Source: a virus. Taken from it: a DNA stretch of 64,000 bases. Shown here one piece after another: positions 4,335-10,789 of the stretch (positions within the stretch are counted from its first letter, which is position 1; every line of letters begins with the position of its first letter). Under the pieces are notes generated by a model. The model was given only the letters and a program-made list of their open reading frames with translations. It did no database searches and had not been told where the DNA came from. The stretch lies in the IMG/VR virus record IMGVR_UViG_3300022602_000058, positions 1 to 64,000 of that record; one strand, 5' to 3'. Both the position numbers and the translations under genes were made by a program.

Positions 4335-5558
4335 ATGATAAGCCCATTCGCCTCACCGTTTGCGTCTCCTTTCGCTTCACCCTTTGGTACAACACCACTA
4401 CAACCGCTTGCACCGGCACAGCCTATTATTGAGCAACCACCTGAGCTTTCACTAAAGCGCGTAATGAATTATTATGCTGATTATAGCGGATGTGGGTTCT
4501 GGCGATTGATATGGCCAGAGCATATTCTTAATGCACATCAAAAGCAAGTAGTCCATGGTAGTACAATGATGTGCTTTGACCCTAATTACTTTAGAGGTGC
4601 TGAATGTGTACGTATTCAACGTCAAGCAACACCACATCAATTACAATTTGTTAGATTTCTTAAAGAGCTTAGTAAACAGCTTGGATTCAGAATTATTTAC
4701 GAGATTGACGATCTTATTTTTAGTGAAGATATTCCTGAGTATAATAAGTTTAAACCTGCTTTTGTAAATCCTGAAATTCGTAAAACAGCTCAAGAGATTA
4801 TGGAGTTGTGTGATGAAGTGACTGTAACTTGTGATTTCATGAAAGAGTATTATATGGGTAAAACAGCGAACAAGAATGTTACTGTTATACCTAATTACCC
4901 ACCAAAGTTCTGGATGGGTAATTTCTATAATGAAAAGAAGATTTCAGATAACTACGATAGGTTCCAGAAGAAGCCTCGTATTCTCTATGCTGGCTCAGGT
5001 GCACACTTTGATGTTGATAACCGTGTTGGTCAGAATGACGACTTTGCACATGTAAATCGCGTCATTCGTGCAACTAAGGACAAATATCAATGGGTATTTC
5101 TCGGTGCATACCCGCTTCCGCTGCACGATCTTATTCAGAGTAGAGAATTTGAATACCACCCTTGGGAAACTCTTTATAGATACCCTGAAAAGATTGCTAG
5201 CTTGAATGTGAATATGATGGTTGCACCTCTACAGAACAACACATTTAATAAAGCTAAGTCAGATCTTAAGTTTATTGAGGCTTGTAGTTACGGTTTACCG
5301 ATTGCTTGTCAAAATATTGTAACGTATGAAAATGCACCTTACAAGTTTGATACAGGTGAGGAAATGATTGATATTGTTGATGATGTTCTCTCTAGGAAGG
5401 GCCGATACATGAATATTTCATCTAAGATGCGTAAGCTTGCTGATGAGCGTTGGCTTGAGAATGAGGATAATATCAACAAATATGTCGAACTTCATACATT
5501 GCCATATGGACATAAAGATAGAAAGCTTTTGAATGCTATCAATGGTATTAAGGCTTGA
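4335..5558 (+). CDS. GT-B fold (GT4-like) glycosyltransferase
   Basis: GCGFWR, EIDD, VIPNY and APLQNNTFNKAKSDLKFIE..YGLP motifs typical of phage GT-B enzymes. Confidence 0.7.
   Translation: MISPFASPFASPFASPFGTTPLQPLAPAQPIIEQPPELSLKRVMNYYADYSGCGFWRLIWPEHILNAHQKQVVHGSTMMCFDPNYFRGAECVRIQRQATPHQLQFVRFLKELSKQLGFRIIYEIDDLIFSEDIPEYNKFKPAFVNPEIRKTAQEIMELCDEVTVTCDFMKEYYMGKTANKNVTVIPNYPPKFWMGNFYNEKKISDNYDRFQKKPRILYAGSGAHFDVDNRVGQNDDFAHVNRVIRATKDKYQWVFLGAYPLPLHDLIQSREFEYHPWETLYRYPEKIASLNVNMMVAPLQNNTFNKAKSDLKFIEACSYGLPIACQNIVTYENAPYKFDTGEEMIDIVDDVLSRKGRYMNISSKMRKLADERWLENEDNINKYVELHTLPYGHKDRKLLNAINGIKA
4341..4388 (+). repeat. Tetrapeptide repeat (SPFA)x3-SPFG
   Basis: agc cca ttc gcc / tca ccg ttt gcg / tct cct ttc gct / tca ccc ttt ggt. 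Confidence 0.9.
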
Positions 5559-5582
5559 TACTATTCTTAGCTAGTATATACT
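5555..5582 (+). promoter_or_regulatory. Sigma70-type early promoter for the polymerase N-fragment
   Basis: TTGATA-16nt-TATACT, 6 nt before GTG at 5589. Confidence 0.55.
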
Positions 5583-5588
5583 ATTGGT

Positions 5589-5993
5589 GTGTACAGGAAC
5601 GTTTCATACTCACCACAAGATCAAACCATTCATCTCCATACATGGGATGAGAATGGTAAGAGAGTAACCGTACAGTCAACGTACGAGCCTTATATCTATC
5701 TTGAGACAAATAATGCGCCAGACGCTCATAGTATCTTTAATACTAAGTTAAAGAAAAAGAAATTTAGGAATCAATACGATAGATCCAAATATATCAAGGA
5801 CAATAAGGTAACGCGAGTATTTGAAAACTTTAACGTATACCAACAATTTTTGATTGATGCATACTGGCAGGAGAATGAAAAACCTGAATTTACAAAGAAT
5901 CAATTAAAGGTATATTTTATTGATATCGAGACCGACTGTCATAATGTTAAGGATAGTAAAAAAATTAAAATTCGCAAAAAAACAATTTCTTGA
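5589..5993 (+). CDS. gp43: DNA polymerase family B, N-terminal fragment (N-domain plus ExoI motif)
   Basis: gp43-like N-terminus (YEPYIY) ending in LKVYFIDIET (ExoI), followed by a 19-aa basic tail and a stop. Confidence 0.85.
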   Translation: MYRNVSYSPQDQTIHLHTWDENGKRVTVQSTYEPYIYLETNNAPDAHSIFNTKLKKKKFRNQYDRSKYIKDNKVTRVFENFNVYQQFLIDAYWQENEKPEFTKNQLKVYFIDIETDCHNVKDSKKIKIRKKTIS

Positions 5994-6003
5994 TATAGAG
6001 ACG

Positions 6004-6011
6004 TATAAATA
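6004..6011 (+). promoter_or_regulatory. T4-type late promoter for the HNH endonuclease gene
   Basis: TATAAATA 5 nt upstream of ATG 6017. Confidence 0.65.
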
Positions 6012-6016
6012 ATTTA

Positions 6017-6823
6017 ATGGATTATAAGTTAATATATCAAAGATTATGTCTCCGCGGGCAAACTAGAACCAAAAATAGTAATATATATCTCGAAAAACAT
6101 CACATTCTACCAAAATGCCTTGGTGGAGACAATTCATTTGCTAACCTAACACTTCTTACAGCCCGTGAACACTATATAGCTCATTACTTGCTGTGTAAGG
6201 TATATAACGATAGCAACATATCAGTTCGAGCTAAATTATCCTCTGCTTTTAACAGAATGTGTACGCTTAATACACATAAACGCCAATTTACATCGCGTCA
6301 ATATGATGTTGCGAGAAAGTATTTTTCTAAAAATCATCATATGAAGAGTAAGGAGTGTAGGGATAAGGTTGCCCTAGCTCTTAGGAAGAAAGGTATAATT
6401 ACAAGACAGCTTAGAGAGCAGCTGCTACCGCTGTGTAAGTGCGGTTGCGGTAAAAAGGTAAAAAATAAATACCACCAATATCTTTATAATCACTGGGACA
6501 GAAGTGTAACAAAATCAGGCTTTACAGAAGAAGTACGTAAACGGCTAAGCGAAAAAGCTATAAAGCGTATATTAAGCCTCACGGATAAGGAAAAGAAAGA
6601 CAGATTACAAAAATCCTTGCATAGTGAGAAAGTGGATCATATTATGAGAGGTAGAAAGATATCTCTCTCCAAAAGAGGGAAGAAAACCAACCAACAAAAT
6701 ATAATGGGTGAAAGATTTGCGAATATGACGGAGGATGAGTTTTTATTATACTTAAACACAGTATCACCAAAGGTATGGACAAGATATACAAAATTAAGAA
6801 ATAGATGTCTGAACAAGAAGTAA
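6017..6823 (+). CDS. HNH homing endonuclease (MobE-like) inserted in the polymerase gene
   Basis: EKHHILPKCLGG..NLTLLTAREHYIAHYLL HNH motif, CKCGC motif, basic C-terminal DNA-binding region. Confidence 0.88.
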   Translation: MDYKLIYQRLCLRGQTRTKNSNIYLEKHHILPKCLGGDNSFANLTLLTAREHYIAHYLLCKVYNDSNISVRAKLSSAFNRMCTLNTHKRQFTSRQYDVARKYFSKNHHMKSKECRDKVALALRKKGIITRQLREQLLPLCKCGCGKKVKNKYHQYLYNHWDRSVTKSGFTEEVRKRLSEKAIKRILSLTDKEKKDRLQKSLHSEKVDHIMRGRKISLSKRGKKTNQQNIMGERFANMTEDEFLLYLNTVSPKVWTRYTKLRNRCLNKK

Positions 6824-9165
6824 CATTAGGGCACTTCCGTAATAATAAATTATGGGAACAAGACTACGAGGTGTGGGATGAAAAAACCGGTACATGGATA
6901 GATTATTTTTCATCATCTTATTCTACAGACACATCGTTTCCGAACCCCCAGGATCCCGATCATCCCATTAATATCATAACTATCTATGACACCATAACAA
7001 AGAAGTTTTATTCATGGGGACTTAAACCTTATAAAGCAAAATCTGTTGATGTAACATATATTGCATGTAAGACAGAGGAAGAGCTATTGCATAAGTTTGT
7101 TACTTTCTTTAGTAAAGATTATTGCGATATCCTTTCGGGATGGAACTCAGAATTTTTTGATGTACCTTATGTTATTAATCGAGTAAGAAAAGTTTTAGGT
7201 GAAGAATCAATGCAAAAACTTTCACCAGCAGGTTCATTGCGTTCAAGAACCTTTATGGGTAAGTATGGTAGAGAACAAGTTAAATGGCATATTGAGGGAT
7301 TATCTTGTGTTGATTATCTTGATATCTATAAACGTTTCTGTCAAACTCTTCGTGAGTCTTATAAATTAGATGCGATTGGCGAAGTGGAATTACAAGAGCG
7401 TAAGATTGATTACGGTGATCAGAATTTGACTGAACTTGCTGATAATGACTGGGATACTTTTGTTGATTATAATATTCAGGACGTTAATCTTTTAGTAAGA
7501 CTAGAGCAAAAACTTCAGTATATTCAATTATTACGAATGATTGCTTATGCTGGTCTTACGACGTTTGAAGGAGCACTTGGATCACTTTCTGTTATTACCG
7601 GTCTTTGCTCTATTCGTGCACGTCTTAAGGATAAGCGTATTCCCACTTTTGTAAAGGATGTACAAGAGGGTACAAAGAATGCTGGTGCGTATGTAGCAGA
7701 TCCACAGCAAGGTTTTCAAGAGCATATAGTATCGTTGGACGCTAATAGTCTATACCCCAACACGATGATTACACTTAATCTCTCACCAGAGACAAAAGTA
7801 GGTAAGATCATTGGAAAGAATGATAAAGAAATTACTATTAAACACGTAAATGGTCAAACGTTCAATCTTACACATGAAAAGTTTGCTGCGTTTGTTAAAC
7901 AGGAGGAGATAGCAATTTCACGTGCTAAAATTCTTTTTACACAAAAGGAGAAAGGTATTATACCTGATACAATTGACTATTATTACAATAAGCGTGTAGA
8001 GGTTAAGAAGCAACTTACTAAAGCAAAGAAAAAATCGCTTACTCTTACTGAAAACACAAAAGAGTATGATAATAATCAGATCGAAATTGACCGACTAAAC
8101 ATTCGTCAGCATACTATTAAGATTTTGATGAATACAGTGTATGGATATTTTGGCAATAAACATAGTCCGTTAGGTGACGATGAACTTGCCGAATCTATTA
8201 CACTTACCGGGCAAGCTGTTATTAAAGAATCAAATCGTATTTTGACTGAATATATCAAGACAAATACCGGTCTGACCGATGAAGATCTAAAAGATAATTC
8301 ACCTATTATCTATAACGATACAGATTCAAGTTATATTTCAATTAAACATCTTGTTAAAGCGAAAAAGATCCCTGTATTTGATAAGGACGGTAATGTACAT
8401 CCTGATTATTACAAAGCTGTTGCTGATATTGAAGATCATTTGAATAATGAAATTATTAAATGGGGCAAAAGCGCGTTAGGATCAAAGGATTGTCGACTTG
8501 TGTTCAAGCGTGAAGCTATTGCTGATGTCGGGCTGTTTCTAGCAAAGAAACGTTACGTCCTGCATACACTTGACGTCGAAGGCATTCCTGGTAAGAAATT
8601 TAAGTATACAGGCGTTGAAGTTGTACGTACAACCATGCCTACACCTATTAAACCTTACGTTAAAAAAATTATTGAAACAATGCTTTTGACGAAAGACTAT
8701 AACGCCACTAATAAAGTGTTTAATGAAACATACGAAATCTTTAAGAAATTACCACTTGAAGATATTGCATTTGTAATGGGTGTGAAGGGATATGAAAAGT
8801 ATGCCAATCGTAGTAATGGATTTGAGACAGTAAAGGGAATGCCCAAACACGTTAAAGCTGCATACTATCATAATATTCTTCTTGATCGATTCGGTATTGA
8901 ACGAAAATATGAAAAGATGACATCAGGTGATAAGGTAAGATTCTTTGAAGTAAAGAAACCTAATAGCTTTGGACTATCTGTTATTGGATACAAATACTAT
9001 TACCCTAAGGAGTTTCAATCTATTTTTGAAATTGATTATGAAACAATGTTTGAAAAGATTATCTATTCTGTTATTGAACGTTTTTACGAAGCTGTAAATT
9101 GGACAGTAAAAAGACCAGGTAATGATGCGCAGATTGATCTTTTTGATTTACTTGGAATGGAATAG
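6805..9165 (+). CDS. gp43: DNA polymerase family B, C-terminal fragment (ExoII/ExoIII plus polymerase domain)
   Basis: GWNSEFFDVPY (ExoII), YNIQD (ExoIII), DANSLYP, KILMNTVYG, YNDTDS, KKRY. Confidence 0.95.
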   Translation: MSEQEVTLGHFRNNKLWEQDYEVWDEKTGTWIDYFSSSYSTDTSFPNPQDPDHPINIITIYDTITKKFYSWGLKPYKAKSVDVTYIACKTEEELLHKFVTFFSKDYCDILSGWNSEFFDVPYVINRVRKVLGEESMQKLSPAGSLRSRTFMGKYGREQVKWHIEGLSCVDYLDIYKRFCQTLRESYKLDAIGEVELQERKIDYGDQNLTELADNDWDTFVDYNIQDVNLLVRLEQKLQYIQLLRMIAYAGLTTFEGALGSLSVITGLCSIRARLKDKRIPTFVKDVQEGTKNAGAYVADPQQGFQEHIVSLDANSLYPNTMITLNLSPETKVGKIIGKNDKEITIKHVNGQTFNLTHEKFAAFVKQEEIAISRAKILFTQKEKGIIPDTIDYYYNKRVEVKKQLTKAKKKSLTLTENTKEYDNNQIEIDRLNIRQHTIKILMNTVYGYFGNKHSPLGDDELAESITLTGQAVIKESNRILTEYIKTNTGLTDEDLKDNSPIIYNDTDSSYISIKHLVKAKKIPVFDKDGNVHPDYYKAVADIEDHLNNEIIKWGKSALGSKDCRLVFKREAIADVGLFLAKKRYVLHTLDVEGIPGKKFKYTGVEVVRTTMPTPIKPYVKKIIETMLLTKDYNATNKVFNETYEIFKKLPLEDIAFVMGVKGYEKYANRSNGFETVKGMPKHVKAAYYHNILLDRFGIERKYEKMTSGDKVRFFEVKKPNSFGLSVIGYKYYYPKEFQSIFEIDYETMFEKIIYSVIERFYEAVNWTVKRPGNDAQIDLFDLLGME

Positions 9166-9202
9166 TTGATTTTAATTAAAGATATAATAATATATTAAAG
9201 AT

Positions 9203-9559
9203 ATGAGCGAAACAAAACTTATTACATTCATTGATCACATCGGCCGCACTATTATTGGTGAGTCCGTTGGTGATGTAGACAGCGGCGCTTCTTTCCTTGT
9301 AAAGAATCCTGCCATCATCCATGTTCAGCCTACCCAGCAGGGTCAGCTTAACGTACAAACAATTCCTCTCTACTTCCGTGAGTTTGTTGGAGAGAAATCA
9401 AAAGAGAATGGTACGACTTGGAAGTATCATTATGCTAATGTCGTTTTTGGTGTTGATGTTGATAACGACCCACGCCTTATTGATCAGTACAGTAAACTCT
9501 TTGCGGCACCTGCCGAGGTAGCCAACGACCCTCAGGTTGTAAAGCTTTTTGATGAGTAA
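9203..9559 (+). CDS. Conserved phage protein, possible Sm-like beta fold
   Basis: Clean ORF between pol and uvsX, beta-rich (LVKNPAII...IPL), with an upstream TTGATT promoter and a downstream terminator. Confidence 0.5.
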   Translation: MSETKLITFIDHIGRTIIGESVGDVDSGASFLVKNPAIIHVQPTQQGQLNVQTIPLYFREFVGEKSKENGTTWKYHYANVVFGVDVDNDPRLIDQYSKLFAAPAEVANDPQVVKLFDE

Positions 9560-9591
9560 TATATCGTAATCTGCTCTCAAGAAACCAGATT

Positions 9592-9621
9592 AAATACCCG
9601 ACTTCGGTCGGGTATTTTTTT
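9592..9621 (+). terminator. Rho-independent terminator with a UUCG tetraloop
   Basis: aaatacccgac-TTCG-gtcgggtattt followed by a T run. Confidence 0.9.
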
Positions 9622-9623
9622 GC

Positions 9624-9651
9624 TTGAATTTATAATCTGGTGTGGTATAAT
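9624..9651 (+). promoter_or_regulatory. Sigma70-type promoter with extended -10 for uvsX
   Basis: TTGAAT-16nt-TATAAT with TGn extension, 7 nt before ATG 9659. Confidence 0.65.
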
Positions 9652-9658
9652 AGGTGAT

Positions 9659-10789
9659 ATGGATAAAGATTTACTTAAAACCCTTTCTATTATTGATGAG
9701 CATAATTCTGATGCTTGTTTTTTGTCTGAAAATGCTCTTTCGAATTTTACTGAGTGTTATGATACTGGTTGTTATGCTCTTAATGCTATTCTTACCGGTG
9801 ATTTGAGAAATGGTGGTGTACCGCAGGGTCGTATTATTGGTTTTAGTGGTGAGTCTGGTACTGGTAAGACTCTTATTACTGGTAAGATTCTTGCTAATGC
9901 TCAGAAGAAAGGTGTTGTACCAGTTATCTTTGATTCTGAAATTGCAGTGGATAAGAATTCTGTTCGCGGTGTTGGTCTTGATCCAGAGAAAGTTAAGTAC
10001 GTACCGATTGATACTATTGAAAAGTGTCGTAACCAGGTTGGTGCCTTACTTGATAAGGTTATTGCAAATAACCAACATGGTAAGATTATTATCTGTATTG
10101 ATAGTTTGGGTAATCTTGCGTCACAGAAAGAGCTCGATGATGCGCTTAAGGATAAGTCAGCTACCGATATGGGTATGCGTGCTAAGGCTCTTAAGTCTAT
10201 GCTTCGTACCTTGACCTATAAGGCTGCTAAGGCTCAGGTATCAATTATCTTTGTTAATCATACATACTCTGATCCTGCTGCTATGTATCCATCTTTGATT
10301 AAGTCACAAGCTGGTGGCTCAGGCCCGGTTTATATGGCAAGTATACTTGTTCAGCTTGCTAAGAGAAATGAAAAGGCTGGAGAAGGCGAGTTTGGTAATA
10401 TTGAGGATAATAAATTATCTGAAGCTAACAAATATAGTGGTGTAACTCTTCGCGCACTTACAGCGAAGAATCGATTTATTCCTCAATTCCTTGAAATTGA
10501 GATGTATCTATCATTTAAGTCAGGACTAAACAAATACAGTGGCTTGCTTGCCATGGCCACAGCAAGAGGTATTGTAGAGCAGAACGGGTCGACTTATACT
10601 GTAGGTATTGATGGCGGTAAATATAAGAAGGGTGATAAGCTTGGTTATGCGAAGAACTTTACCAAGGACCCATCTTTTTATGAGGATTTTATTATTCCAG
10701 CTTTAGATGAAGCTTTGAAAAAGGATTACCGCTATCATCAAGCTGCTGATGATATTGTTGATAATGTTGTTGAACAGGACGCTGAATAA
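9659..10789 (+). CDS. uvsX: RecA-like recombinase
   Basis: GESGTGKT Walker A, FDSE, IDSLGNL, AGGSG, KNRF; start placed at ATG 9659 (MDKDLL) downstream of the promoter. Confidence 0.92.
   Translation: MDKDLLKTLSIIDEHNSDACFLSENALSNFTECYDTGCYALNAILTGDLRNGGVPQGRIIGFSGESGTGKTLITGKILANAQKKGVVPVIFDSEIAVDKNSVRGVGLDPEKVKYVPIDTIEKCRNQVGALLDKVIANNQHGKIIICIDSLGNLASQKELDDALKDKSATDMGMRAKALKSMLRTLTYKAAKAQVSIIFVNHTYSDPAAMYPSLIKSQAGGSGPVYMASILVQLAKRNEKAGEGEFGNIEDNKLSEANKYSGVTLRALTAKNRFIPQFLEIEMYLSFKSGLNKYSGLLAMATARGIVEQNGSTYTVGIDGGKYKKGDKLGYAKNFTKDPSFYEDFIIPALDEALKKDYRYHQAADDIVDNVVEQDAE

What the first reader, a model, noticed from the sequence alone, without database searches (positions are those of the whole stretch)
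5589..9165. DNA polymerase split inside its proofreading active site by an HNH gene, with no intron or complete intein
Seen: fragment A (134 aa) ends just after ExoI (IDIET). An 807-nt MobE-like HNH ORF follows, then fragment B carries ExoII, ExoIII and all polymerase motifs intact. Only 23 nt of non-coding DNA separate A from the HNH gene and the HNH gene overlaps B, leaving no room for a ribozyme core; fragment B has no intein block B/F/G. Established: mobE splits nrdA of phage Aeh1 into peptides that assemble without splicing, and the known split gp43A/B of some Aeromonas/Acinetobacter T4-like phages break elsewhere in the protein. Inference: a heterodimeric polymerase whose exonuclease site is built from two chains.
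Basis: partly seen in the sequence, partly recalled or inferred. Interest (0 to 1): 0.88.

Follow-up and report, generated by a model that had tools for sequence, protein, structure and literature searches.

The report
Endonuclease-split phage DNA polymerase with clasp
A lake-water T4-like phage encodes its DNA-copying enzyme as two separate proteins because a selfish endonuclease gene sits inside the gene, and the insert brings a matched pair of peptide ends that probably clip the halves together; the principle is known from one other phage enzyme.

Summary
Gene 43 (family B DNA polymerase) is in three frames: fragment A (5589-5993, ends 19 residues after ExoI), a Mob-type HNH gene (6017-6823) and fragment B (6805-9165, with ExoII, ExoIII and the polymerase motifs). 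No intron (Rfam) or intein (Pfam, size, junction residues) was found.

New here: a 1056-nt block (5919-6974: A tail, late promoter, HNH, B head) is 98-100% identical in phages whose flanking polymerase DNA is only 77-87% identical. An empty-site allele lies in the same lake sample. So it is a mobile cassette.

All 16 loci with a full-length HNH relative (30-99% identity) have it in front of fragment B. All 15 of these with upstream DNA keep an intact A.

The basic A tail and acidic B head are the two parts of a 63-residue module. The module also occurs uninterrupted in many unsplit polymerases. On the polymerase tree it appears and disappears together with the endonuclease.

Best reading: a two-chain polymerase assembled without splicing, with a proofreading site built from both chains, as in Aeh1 NrdA/mobE. 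No biochemistry or structure model was possible.

This scan has reported the same arrangement on other genomes. Four literature searches found no paper on it.

The parts
5589..5993 (+). gene 43 fragment A (134 aa): first segment of the N-terminal domain, the ExoI strand and a 19-residue tail
   Evidence: ORF. phrog_262 positions 16-129. 89% aa identity to residues 1-115 of the unsplit P0005.
5922..5930 (+). ExoI DxE codons (A residues 112-114)
   Evidence: Invariant in 25 of 25 aligned A-type sequences. Aligns with RB69 gp43 residues 114-116 through P0005.
5934..5990 (+). basic C-terminal tail of A (residues 116-134), first part of the module; the conserved basic/aliphatic run is 5961-5981
   Evidence: Net charge +5, pI 10.0; basic in 13 of 13 loci. 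The run is conserved in 14 of 23 aligned database fragments and in all 15 loci with upstream DNA.
5919..6974 (+). mobile block shared at 98-100% DNA identity with phages whose flanks are 77-87% identical
   Evidence: boundaries. dS of HNH 0.019 against 1.8-2.4 in the flanks. An empty-site contig joins 5929 to 6967.
5984..6007 (+). second, untranslated DNA copy of the ExoI/empty-site sequence, abutting the late promoter; candidate operator or hairpin arm
   Evidence: 17-18 of 22 matches to 12 of 12 empty alleles; 0 of 2000 shuffles reach 17. Found in 9 of 13 loci at <=12 of 500 shuffles; mismatches fall on wobble positions 37 of 53.
6004..6011 (+). TATAAATA, T4-type late promoter element, 5 nt before the HNH start codon
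   Evidence: Present in 13 of 15 cassette loci. Only 7 copies in the window, 4 of them 5-6 nt before an ORF start. That this is the T4 late consensus is recalled.
6017..6823 (+). free-standing Mob-type HNH homing endonuclease gene (268 aa); HNH core about 6098-6172
   Evidence: phrog_655, E 3.9e-37. Pfam HNH_4, E 0.0024, below its cut-off. His/Asn residues invariant against the 41%-identical relative in L005. dN/dS 0.11-0.33 in diverged pairs.
6805..6936 (+). acidic N-terminal head of B (residues 1-44), second part of the module
   Evidence: Net charge -5, pI 4.3; acidic in 14 of 14 loci. Conserved positions 21-26, 31, 37-39. Continuous with the tail in unsplit homologues.
6805..9165 (+). gene 43 fragment B (786 aa): rest of the exonuclease domain (ExoII 7144-7161, ExoIII 7468-7482), second segment of the N-terminal domain, palm, fingers, thumb
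   Evidence: 98% aa identity over 699 columns to the unsplit P0005.

Best explanation
A mobile cassette of about 1.05 kb sits in gene 43 of this freshwater T4-like phage, in the loop directly after the ExoI strand. The cassette consists of a free-standing Mob-type HNH homing endonuclease gene with its own late promoter. On one side it is flanked by 19 codons that end fragment A with a basic tail and a stop. On the other side it is flanked by a start codon and 44 codons that open fragment B with an acidic head.

A and B are translated separately and are not joined by RNA or protein splicing.

They assemble into one polymerase (inferred). A supplies the first part of the N-terminal domain and the central strand of the proofreading domain, with the two ExoI carboxylates. 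B supplies everything else. The tail and head re-form one small beta-rich module, so the insert itself neutralises the break.

The cassette spreads by homing into unsplit alleles and carries the module with it.

Shown: the anatomy, the mobility, the conservation, the absence of intron and intein signatures. Inferred: assembly, a composite active site, the clasp role, cleavage of the empty site by the HNH.
For: Anatomy.

No intron or intein.

Mobility:
- The block 5919-6974 is 98-100% identical to L002/L003/L004, while A core is 78-82% and B core 77-82% identical.
- Window against L060: HNH dS 0.019, A dS 2.41, B dS 1.77.
- With the module columns left out, the window's B pairs with the unsplit, module-less P0005 (support 99, 98% identity over 699 columns).
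- A 203-nt contig of run X1 joins 5929 to 6967 with 49 other letters. This is the empty site, in a sample that also holds the cassette.
- Of 51 IMG/VR loci with A relatives, 3 are split, 45 unsplit and 3 undecidable.

Long-term retention:
- 16 of 16 loci with a full-length HNH relative (30-99% identity) have it directly before fragment B, whose identity goes down to 29%.
- 15 of 15 of these with upstream DNA have an intact A with ExoI and the tail.
- L061 against L062: HNH dS 0.69, A dN/dS 0.11, B dN/dS 0.16.
- DxE is invariant in 25 of 25 A-type sequences.

Clasp:
- Tails are basic in 13 of 13 loci (pI 9.5-11.3) and heads acidic in 14 of 14 (pI 4.1-4.9). Crona et al. 2011 report the same polarity (pI 10.4 and 3.8) for the essential Aeh1 NrdA tails (PMC3045599, Discussion).
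- Tail and head are contiguous, 3-8 residues apart, in unsplit polymerases such as Xanthomonas phage X1, P0260, P0220 and P0203.
- Among the best 150 representatives, 40 are split-type, 46 unsplit with the module, 63 without the module and 1 unclear.
Against:
- The cassette reached this lineage recently (HNH dS about 0.02). A's intactness in the window itself therefore says little, and the argument rests on older, diverged cassettes.
- Split alleles are a minority in this clade (3 of 48 decidable loci), which would also fit a mildly harmful insert.
- At the position where 13 of 14 heads have Cys, the window has Ser.
- B has only a weak Shine-Dalgarno-like sequence.
- The assignment of strands in the module rests on residue pattern and on weak Kelch-motif hits (3 of 14 at E 0.07; one PDB Kelch chain).
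Confidence: 0.8

Rival explanations
1. Fragment B alone is the working polymerase, proofreading-deficient or helped by another exonuclease. Fragment A is a leftover that has not yet decayed.
For: The cassette is recent in this lineage (HNH dS 0.019), so A would not have had time to decay here. Split alleles are rare in the clade (3 of 48). T4 exonuclease-deficient polymerase mutants are viable mutators (recalled).
Against: A is intact, with an invariant DxE, in 15 of 15 loci with upstream DNA. These include cassettes whose HNH has diverged to 30-50% identity. A's dN/dS of 0.11 equals B's 0.16 in a pair whose HNH has dS 0.69. By alignment to RB69 gp43 and the recalled fold, A holds the central strand of the exonuclease sheet and half of the N-terminal domain, so B alone should not fold.
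Confidence: 0.07
2. One chain is restored by splicing. Either a group I/II intron carries the HNH ORF, or the tail and head are a miniature split intein that ligates A to B.
For: HNH genes often live in introns and inteins. Fractured genes with split inteins and a free-standing endonuclease between them are known from metagenomes (PMC2677866, passages). The tail and head have opposite charges, as split-intein halves do (stated in PMC3045599, Discussion).
Against: - The Rfam E-value scan finds no intron.
- Only 23 nt are non-coding, and the HNH overlaps B.
- Tail and head are conserved as protein with varying codons.
- The module has 63 residues, under half of a HINT domain (size of HINT recalled).
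- The first residue after ExoI and the residues before the conserved end of the head vary.
- No Hint or intein hit in 14 of 14 heads at E<=5.
- The module stays in place in 46 unsplit representatives that have no endonuclease.
Confidence: 0.03
3. Artefact or dead gene: a chimeric assembly, or a defective phage with a broken polymerase.
For: The record is a metagenomic contig rated 41% complete.
Against: The same junctions occur in three other IMG/VR contigs, in contigs of four studies and in 786-aa proteins from JGI, ENA and Logan sources. All three ORFs are open and under purifying selection.
Confidence: 0.02
4. Rival on origin only. The 63-residue module is an old, native insertion of some polymerase lineages. 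The endonuclease merely landed in one of its loops, and the module reached the window's lineage as an ordinary co-converted flank. It would not be a clasp that belongs to the mobile element.
For: 46 of the best 150 representatives carry the module uninterrupted and without an endonuclease. Cultured Xanthomonas phages X1 and BUDD do so too.
Against: Presence of the module needs at least 10 changes on the polymerase tree of 51 rows. Split forms are sisters of module-less forms at least four times: window-P0005, L063-P0229, L072-P0250, P0158-P0266. This fits a module that arrives with the endonuclease and stays behind when it is lost. The tree is unrooted, so gains cannot be told from losses.
Confidence: 0.35

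Closest known systems
nrdA-a / mobE / nrdA-b of Aeromonas phage Aeh1 ('genes in pieces'; Crona et al. 2011, PMC3045599: abstract and Discussion read. Friedrich et al. 2007 seen only as a citation)
   Same: A free-standing HNH (Mob-type) endonuclease gene splits an essential enzyme gene next to active-site residues. The two halves are translated separately with no RNA or protein splicing. A basic C-terminal tail and an acidic N-terminal tail came with the insert. There, the tails are essential for activity.
   Different: The host gene is the replicative DNA polymerase. Here the tails are strongly conserved across dozens of lineages and are two parts of one module that also exists uninterrupted. 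Mobility of the whole unit, tails included, is directly visible in the identity step and the empty site. Function is untested here.
Split gene 43 (43A/43B) of Aeromonas and other T4-like phages (Petrov, Karam and co-workers; seen only as cited in PMC2677866 and PMC2988022 passages)
   Same: A T4-type family B polymerase is encoded by two genes with intervening DNA. In phage 25 that DNA holds a homing endonuclease gene.
   Different: That split lies far downstream. B alone covers both PHROG families of that split (phrog_2062 on 42-419, phrog_1918 on 404-781). That endonuclease is GIY-YIG, and the gap is 2-3 kb. The present break is directly after ExoI.
Fractured genes with split inteins and a free-standing endonuclease between the halves (Dassa et al. 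2009, PMC2677866, passages read)
   Same: The gene order is N-half, endonuclease, C-half in environmental phage-like DNA. Short added peptides lie on both halves.
   Different: No intein signatures, and the module is too small for an intein. The module persists unspliced in uninterrupted genes.
T4 gene 39 / mobA / gene 60 (as discussed in PMC3045599, Discussion)
   Same: A Mob-type HNH gene lies between two halves of a replication enzyme, and the halves have tail-like extensions.
   Different: No 50-nt bypass element is involved here. The host enzyme is different.
I-TevI autorepression and late-promoter/hairpin control of T4-type endonucleases (review PMC2988022, passages read)
   Same: A sequence resembling the homing site abuts or overlaps the late promoter of the endonuclease gene. 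Here the match is 17-18 of 22; for I-TevI it is 15 of 20. A hairpin encloses the promoter and start region.
   Different: I-TevI is an intron-encoded GIY-YIG enzyme. Binding and repression are untested here, and the window's hairpin is weak (z -1.75).

Membership tests
Gene split by a free-standing homing endonuclease without splicing (Aeh1 nrdA/mobE type) | Host gene in two separately startable and stoppable ORFs with the endonuclease gene between them | tested here: met
   Three ORFs in three frames, 23-nt gap, 19-nt overlap. The profile is covered contiguously, 16-129 and 128-844.
Gene split by a free-standing homing endonuclease without splicing (Aeh1 nrdA/mobE type) | Intervening gene is an intact HNH homing endonuclease | tested here: met
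   phrog_655, E 3.9e-37. Catalytic His/Asn positions conserved. Purifying selection. Pfam HNH_4 only below its cut-off. Nuclease activity not testable.
Gene split by a free-standing homing endonuclease without splicing (Aeh1 nrdA/mobE type) | No self-splicing intron around the endonuclease gene | tested here: met
   Rfam E-value scan of 5000-9600: 5 chance-level hits, no intron family. RNA data are lacking.
Gene split by a free-standing homing endonuclease without splicing (Aeh1 nrdA/mobE type) | Insert-borne tails of opposite charge on the two halves | tested here: met
   Tail +5, pI 10.0; head -5, pI 4.3. Same polarity in 13 of 13 and 14 of 14 loci.
Gene split by a free-standing homing endonuclease without splicing (Aeh1 nrdA/mobE type) | The halves assemble into an active enzyme and the tails are needed | not testable with these tools
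   Needs co-expression and assays.
Gene split by a free-standing homing endonuclease without splicing (Aeh1 nrdA/mobE type) | Mobility: presence/absence polymorphism and a step in identity at the insert's borders | tested here: met
Split intein / fractured gene | Nucleophile (Cys/Ser) as first residue after the N-extein; terminal Asn followed by Cys/Ser/Thr at the C-junction; HINT-size domain | tested here: not met
   Junction residues vary among loci. The module totals 63 residues. No Hint or intein hit.
Group I/II intron with endonuclease ORF | Ribozyme core flanking or overlapping the ORF | tested here: not met
   No Rfam match. The flanks of the ORF are conserved as protein with varying codons.
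gp43A/gp43B split of T4-like Aeromonas/Acinetobacter phages | Break in the polymerase half of the protein, giving products of about 500 and 380 residues | tested here: not met
   B spans both product families without a break. The break here is after residue 115 of about 860.
T4-type family B DNA polymerase (gp43) | ExoI, ExoII, ExoIII and polymerase motifs A, B, C all present | tested here: met
   ExoI is in A, the rest in B. Best solved relative is RB69 gp43, E 1e-60 for the unsplit P0005.

The most novel reading that the evidence does not exclude
The 63-residue module is a portable protein clasp that belongs to the homing endonuclease element. It lets the element invade the DNA that encodes a catalytic motif of an essential polymerase without killing the phage. 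It moves with the element between polymerase lineages, including lineages that never had it. It stays behind as a scar in the many unsplit polymerases that carry it, so a selfish gene has repeatedly remodelled the architecture of a replicative enzyme. The same element also carries a copy of its own target beside its late promoter. The endonuclease reads this copy at the non-wobble positions to repress itself.
Probability: 0.4. Interest if true: 0.72.

Novelty: new variant of a known kind. Interest (0 to 1): 0.58.

Why it matters
This would be the second enzyme, after Aeh1 ribonucleotide reductase, in which a homing endonuclease brings its own remedy for the break it makes. Here the remedy is a conserved, recognisable and widely spread module, not a one-off pair of tails.

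That makes a general question testable: how can selfish endonucleases target the most conserved, active-site-coding DNA of essential genes without a self-splicing vehicle?

It also gives a natural example of a replicative polymerase whose proofreading site is completed in trans.

It offers a small natural split-protein complementation tag.

For annotation, short 'hypothetical' ORFs of about 132-137 residues in front of HNH genes in T4-like contigs are the N-terminal part of the polymerase.

Tried and rejected
1. After my first idea was that B's head is a degenerate duplicate of A's end with the catalytic residues lost. I rejected it when Xanthomonas phage X1 and many unsplit representatives showed tail and head as neighbours in one uninterrupted insertion.

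2. Ribosomal bypass or frameshift into the second ExoI-like copy. The copy lies in frames 0, 1 or 2 relative to A, and in most loci after A's stop. In the window its frame ends in a stop a few codons past the copy. Dropped.

3. Megablast of 5400-9300 against deposited phages: no match. tblastn of the window's B head (48 aa): no match at E<=1. tblastn of L067's B start: 0 of 1557 matching records cover the module part. So no deposited phage with this split was found at that sensitivity. Only X1 and BUDD align from residue 1.

4. No RNA holder is listed for 5700-7100, so expression and splicing could not be examined. Parts of the laid stretch without contig cover are not used as evidence.

5. 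The PDB profile search found no solved polymerase with the module. RB69 and T4 chains match only from the conserved part onward.

6. NCBIfam gave nothing for A or the HNH.

7. Alignment A6 (17 unsplit module-bearing polymerases) was made for a fold that could not be run.

8. Literature. Four full-text searches gave no paper describing a gene 43 split at ExoI. The JMB papers of Petrov et al. (2006, 2010) are not in the library, and supplements were closed, so prior description there cannot be excluded.

9. The tree kept the module's own columns. I repeated it without them and use that one for the counts. Rows were my own choice: 18 split, 17 unsplit with the module, 16 without. They are not a random sample. 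L070 and L071 (truncated or interrupted B), L058 and L059 (near-copies of L060) were left out.


Full report
WHAT IS THERE

The window is the first 64 kb of a 90,084-bp IMG/VR virus record rated 41% complete. The polymerase is followed by a UvsX/RecA-like gene at 9620-10789. Its best deposited relatives are T4-like phages of Pelagibacter, cyanobacteria and Methylophilales, at only 30-32% identity. Megablast finds nothing.

The three ORFs of the finding are as described:
- A: 5589-5993, 134 aa.
- HNH: 6017-6823, 268 aa.
- B: 6805-9165, 786 aa.

They lie in three different frames. The gap between A and HNH is 23 nt, and HNH and B overlap by 19 nt. A covers positions 16-129 and B positions 128-844 of the PHROG polymerase profile. 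Together they are therefore one complete gp43. ExoI (5922-5930) is in A. ExoII, ExoIII and polymerase motifs A-C are in B.

NOT AN INTRON, NOT AN INTEIN

An Rfam scan at E<=10 of 5000-9600 gives five chance-level snoRNA/sRNA hits and no intron family. A and B have no Hint or intein family in Pfam. Neither do the first 115 residues of 14 diverse B fragments at E<=5. The residues at the two junctions vary between loci. The peptides added at the break total 63 residues.

THE UNSPLIT STATE AND THE EXACT INSERT

A word-indexed protein search with B returns two kinds of close relatives:
- 786-aa proteins like B (P0001-P0004 and P0006, 90-92% identity, full coverage).
- Many proteins of 847-863 aa, among them P0005 (862 aa, 97% identical over 95% of B).

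In the alignment P0005 runs straight from ExoI through five residues into the conserved stretch that begins at B residue 45. The window therefore has 19 (A 116-134) plus 44 (B 1-44) extra residues and the HNH gene in place of five residues.

Through P0005 the site maps to RB69 gp43 between residues 118 and 123, directly after the ExoI residues 114 and 116. The numbers are read from the printed alignment. The domain limits of RB69 gp43 and the strand order of the exonuclease fold are recalled, not tested.

IT IS A MOBILE CASSETTE

Three IMG/VR contigs hold the same HNH at 98-99% protein identity. In a DNA alignment with the window:

| Region | DNA identity to the window |
|---|---|
| upstream region | 73-75% |
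| A core | 78-82% |
| tail, spacer, HNH and B head | 96-100% |
| B core | 77-82% |

The borders of the near-identical block lie at about 5919 and 6974.

Synonymous divergence tells the same story. For the window against L060, HNH dS is 0.019, against 2.41 in A and 1.77 in B.

L002 and L004 differ in A (87%) but are 99-100% identical from the cassette rightwards. This points to a recombination joint at the cassette.

Contigs of four freshwater or lake studies carry the cassette. One example is X3 record 16, which covers 5889-6989 with 23 differences. One 203-nt contig of X1 joins 5929 to 6967 with 49 other letters between. That is the empty site, in a sample that also has the occupied one.

Among 51 IMG/VR loci with relatives of A, 3 are split, 45 are open for at least 300 codons and 3 end too early to tell.

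On a tree built without the module's columns, the window's B is sister to the unsplit, module-less P0005 (support 99; 98% identity over 699 columns). It is not sister to the other cassette carriers.

THE ARRANGEMENT IS OLD AND WIDESPREAD

A scan of viral contigs with an HNH alignment kept 80 loci. In 16 of them the match covers the whole endonuclease (30-99% identity). In all 16 it lies directly before a B-type polymerase fragment, whose identity to the window's B goes down to 29%. In the other 64 only the N-terminal nuclease domain matches, and at most a distant or partial polymerase hit lies nearby.

Fifteen of the 16 have DNA upstream of the HNH. All 15 have an open A-type ORF that ends with ExoI, a short variable stretch, the same basic/aliphatic run and a stop.

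The large protein collection holds further A-type proteins of 132-137 residues. Of the 31 hits I aligned 23, and 14 carry this tail. The other 9 are contig-end pieces of unsplit genes or end otherwise.

A profile of 14 B starts found 2149 representatives at E<=0.001 among 1.84 billion. Of the best 150:

| Class | Number |
|---|---|
| begin with the head (split type) | 40 |
| have the module internally at about residue 130-185 (unsplit with module) | 46 |
| match only after it (no module) | 63 |
| unclear | 1 |

SELECTION ON A

In the pair L061/L062 the HNH itself has dS 0.69. A has dN/dS 0.11 and B 0.16.

If the two cassettes descend from one split ancestor, A has stayed under the same constraint as B for that time. 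If it were free to drift, an ORF of 134 codons should have been broken. This last step is my inference.

The DxE of ExoI is invariant in 25 of 25 aligned A-type sequences.

THE TWO ENDS ARE ONE MODULE

The last 19 residues of A are basic in 13 of 13 loci (net +2 to +10, pI 9.5-11.3). The first 40 residues of B are acidic in 14 of 14 (net -2 to -10, pI 4.1-4.9).

Crona et al. 2011 report this polarity for the tails of Aeh1 NrdA-a (pI 10.4) and NrdA-b (pI 3.8). They show that those tails, which came with the mobE insertion, are essential for activity (PMC3045599; abstract; Discussion).

Here the ends are more than charged tails. In the unsplit polymerase of Xanthomonas phage X1, and in P0260, P0220, P0203 and others, the tail-like run and the head-like stretch follow each other with 3-8 residues between. 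All of it lies between ExoI and the conserved stretch. The endonuclease gene thus sits in a turn inside a small module.

The residue patterns alternate, and there are weak Kelch-blade hits (3 of 14 heads; one PDB Kelch chain).

WHOSE MODULE IS IT

On the polymerase tree of 51 rows that I chose, the split state needs at least 12 changes, 11 of them forced by well-supported branches. Presence of the module needs at least 10.

Split forms are sisters of module-less forms in at least four places. In the tree, the pairs L063-P0229, L072-P0250 and P0158-P0266 each have support 100. The window pairs with P0005.

So the module enters module-less lineages together with the endonuclease, as seen directly in the window. 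The unsplit module-bearing genes may be what remains when the endonuclease gene is lost. The tree is unrooted, so the opposite order is not excluded. I give that rival 0.35.

MECHANISM PROPOSED

1. The HNH enzyme cuts or nicks unsplit alleles near the ExoI codons (inferred from the insert site and from the very short shared flanks, about 15 nt on the left and 38 nt on the right).
2. Repair copies the block 5934-6936 with its flanks (supported by the identity step and the empty site).
3. A and B are translated separately. This follows from the frames and the start and stop codons. B's own start has only a weak ribosome-binding sequence, and its surroundings fold weakly (z -0.31).
4. A's ExoI strand and N-terminal segment complete B's exonuclease and N-terminal domains, and the tail-head module locks the joint (inferred).
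5. The proofreading site then has its first two carboxylates on one chain and the remaining residues on the other.

CONTROL OF THE ENDONUCLEASE GENE (SIDE FINDING)

TATAAATA lies 5 nt before the HNH start (6004-6011). It occurs in 13 of 15 cassette loci.

The word is rare in the window: 7 copies against 15 +/- 4 expected. Four of the 7 lie 5-6 nt before an ORF start.

Directly beside it lies a second copy of the ExoI-coding DNA.
- In the window, 5984-6007 matches 12 of 12 empty-site alleles at 17-18 of 22 positions. Shuffles average 11.7, and none of 2000 reaches 17.
- A copy is found in 9 of 13 distinct loci at <=12 of 500 shuffles. In L061, L062, L063 and L066 the best match is no better than chance.
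- Its fourth codon follows the host's own ExoI variant.
- Its 53 mismatches to the real ExoI fall 10, 6 and 37 on codon positions 1, 2 and 3 (chi-square p 1e-7). Yet the copy lies in any of the three frames and mostly behind A's stop.

The review PMC2988022 (passages) describes the precedent. The operator of I-TevI resembles its homing site (15 of 20) and overlaps its late promoter. Hairpins with an internal late promoter control I-TevI, segB and mobE.

The copy is also the 5' arm of a predicted hairpin around the promoter and start:

| Locus | Energy (kcal/mol) | z |
|---|---|---|
| window | -13.7 | -1.75 |
| L067 | -14.1 | -2.9 |
| L064 | not noted | -1.9 |
| L070 | -23.8 | -5.1 |

I read the copy as a target mimic used for self-control, with odds of about one in two. 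A fossil of a former host's exon end is the alternative.

COMPARISON AND NOVELTY

The kind is known: an essential phage gene split by a free-standing Mob-type endonuclease and rescued by insert-borne tails, as in Aeh1 nrdA/mobE. Split gene 43 is known too, but at another site and with another endonuclease family (passages of PMC2677866).

New are:
- the site, directly after a catalytic motif of the proofreading domain;
- the conserved two-part module;
- its occurrence whole or split in many lineages;
- its visible transfer into a module-less polymerase;
- the target-like copy at the promoter.

Four full-text searches found no description. The subscription papers of Petrov et al. could not be read.

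This scan has already reported the same arrangement on other genomes, so it is not new to the scan. My analysis agrees with those reports.

VERDICT

- Observation: confirmed.
- First reading: supported.
- Confidence in the two-chain, non-spliced polymerase: 0.8.
- Class: new variant of a known kind.
- Interest: 0.58.

Noticed in passing
window 5984-6011; also L064, L067-L073 between A's stop and the HNH start: A second, mostly untranslated DNA copy of the host's own ExoI codons lies beside the endonuclease's late promoter. It follows the host's fourth-codon variant and differs from the real ExoI mainly at wobble positions (37 of 53 mismatches). It looks like an I-TevI-type operator or target mimic.
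   Followed up: partly
L002/L058 against L004/L060 (IMG/VR contigs 3300010334_002320 and 3300010885_037880): The two carriers are 99-100% identical from the cassette through B but only 85-87% identical upstream and in A. A recombination joint therefore lies at the cassette's left border.
   Followed up: partly
run X1, record 1, laid on window 5853-5929 and 6967-7040: An empty-site (unsplit, module-less) allele and the cassette-bearing allele occur in the same freshwater sample.
   Followed up: partly
L071:4774-5511: In this relative the B fragment is interrupted a second time. About 740 nt lie between the parts that match B residues 8-332 and 355-770. This may be another mobile insert.
   Followed up: no
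L067:1623-1862 (minus strand): A second, partial HNH-like stretch (42% identity to residues 21-105) lies about 700 nt upstream of fragment A.
   Followed up: no
window, 7 sites (6004, 16274, 21697, 24627, 25251, 55591, 58620): TATAAATA is under-represented (7 against 15 +/- 4 expected). Four of the seven lie 5-6 nt before an ORF start, which fits nearly leaderless late messages.
   Followed up: partly
window 5555-5582: A sigma-70-like promoter match (10 of 12) ends 6 nt before A's GTG start.
   Followed up: no
B residues 17-33 (window 6853-6903) and the same part of 13 relatives: Weak likeness to a Kelch blade motif (Pfam Kelch_2 in 3 of 14 at E 0.07; one PDB Kelch chain at E 1e-5 over 17 positions). 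It may only reflect a strand-turn-strand pattern.
   Followed up: partly
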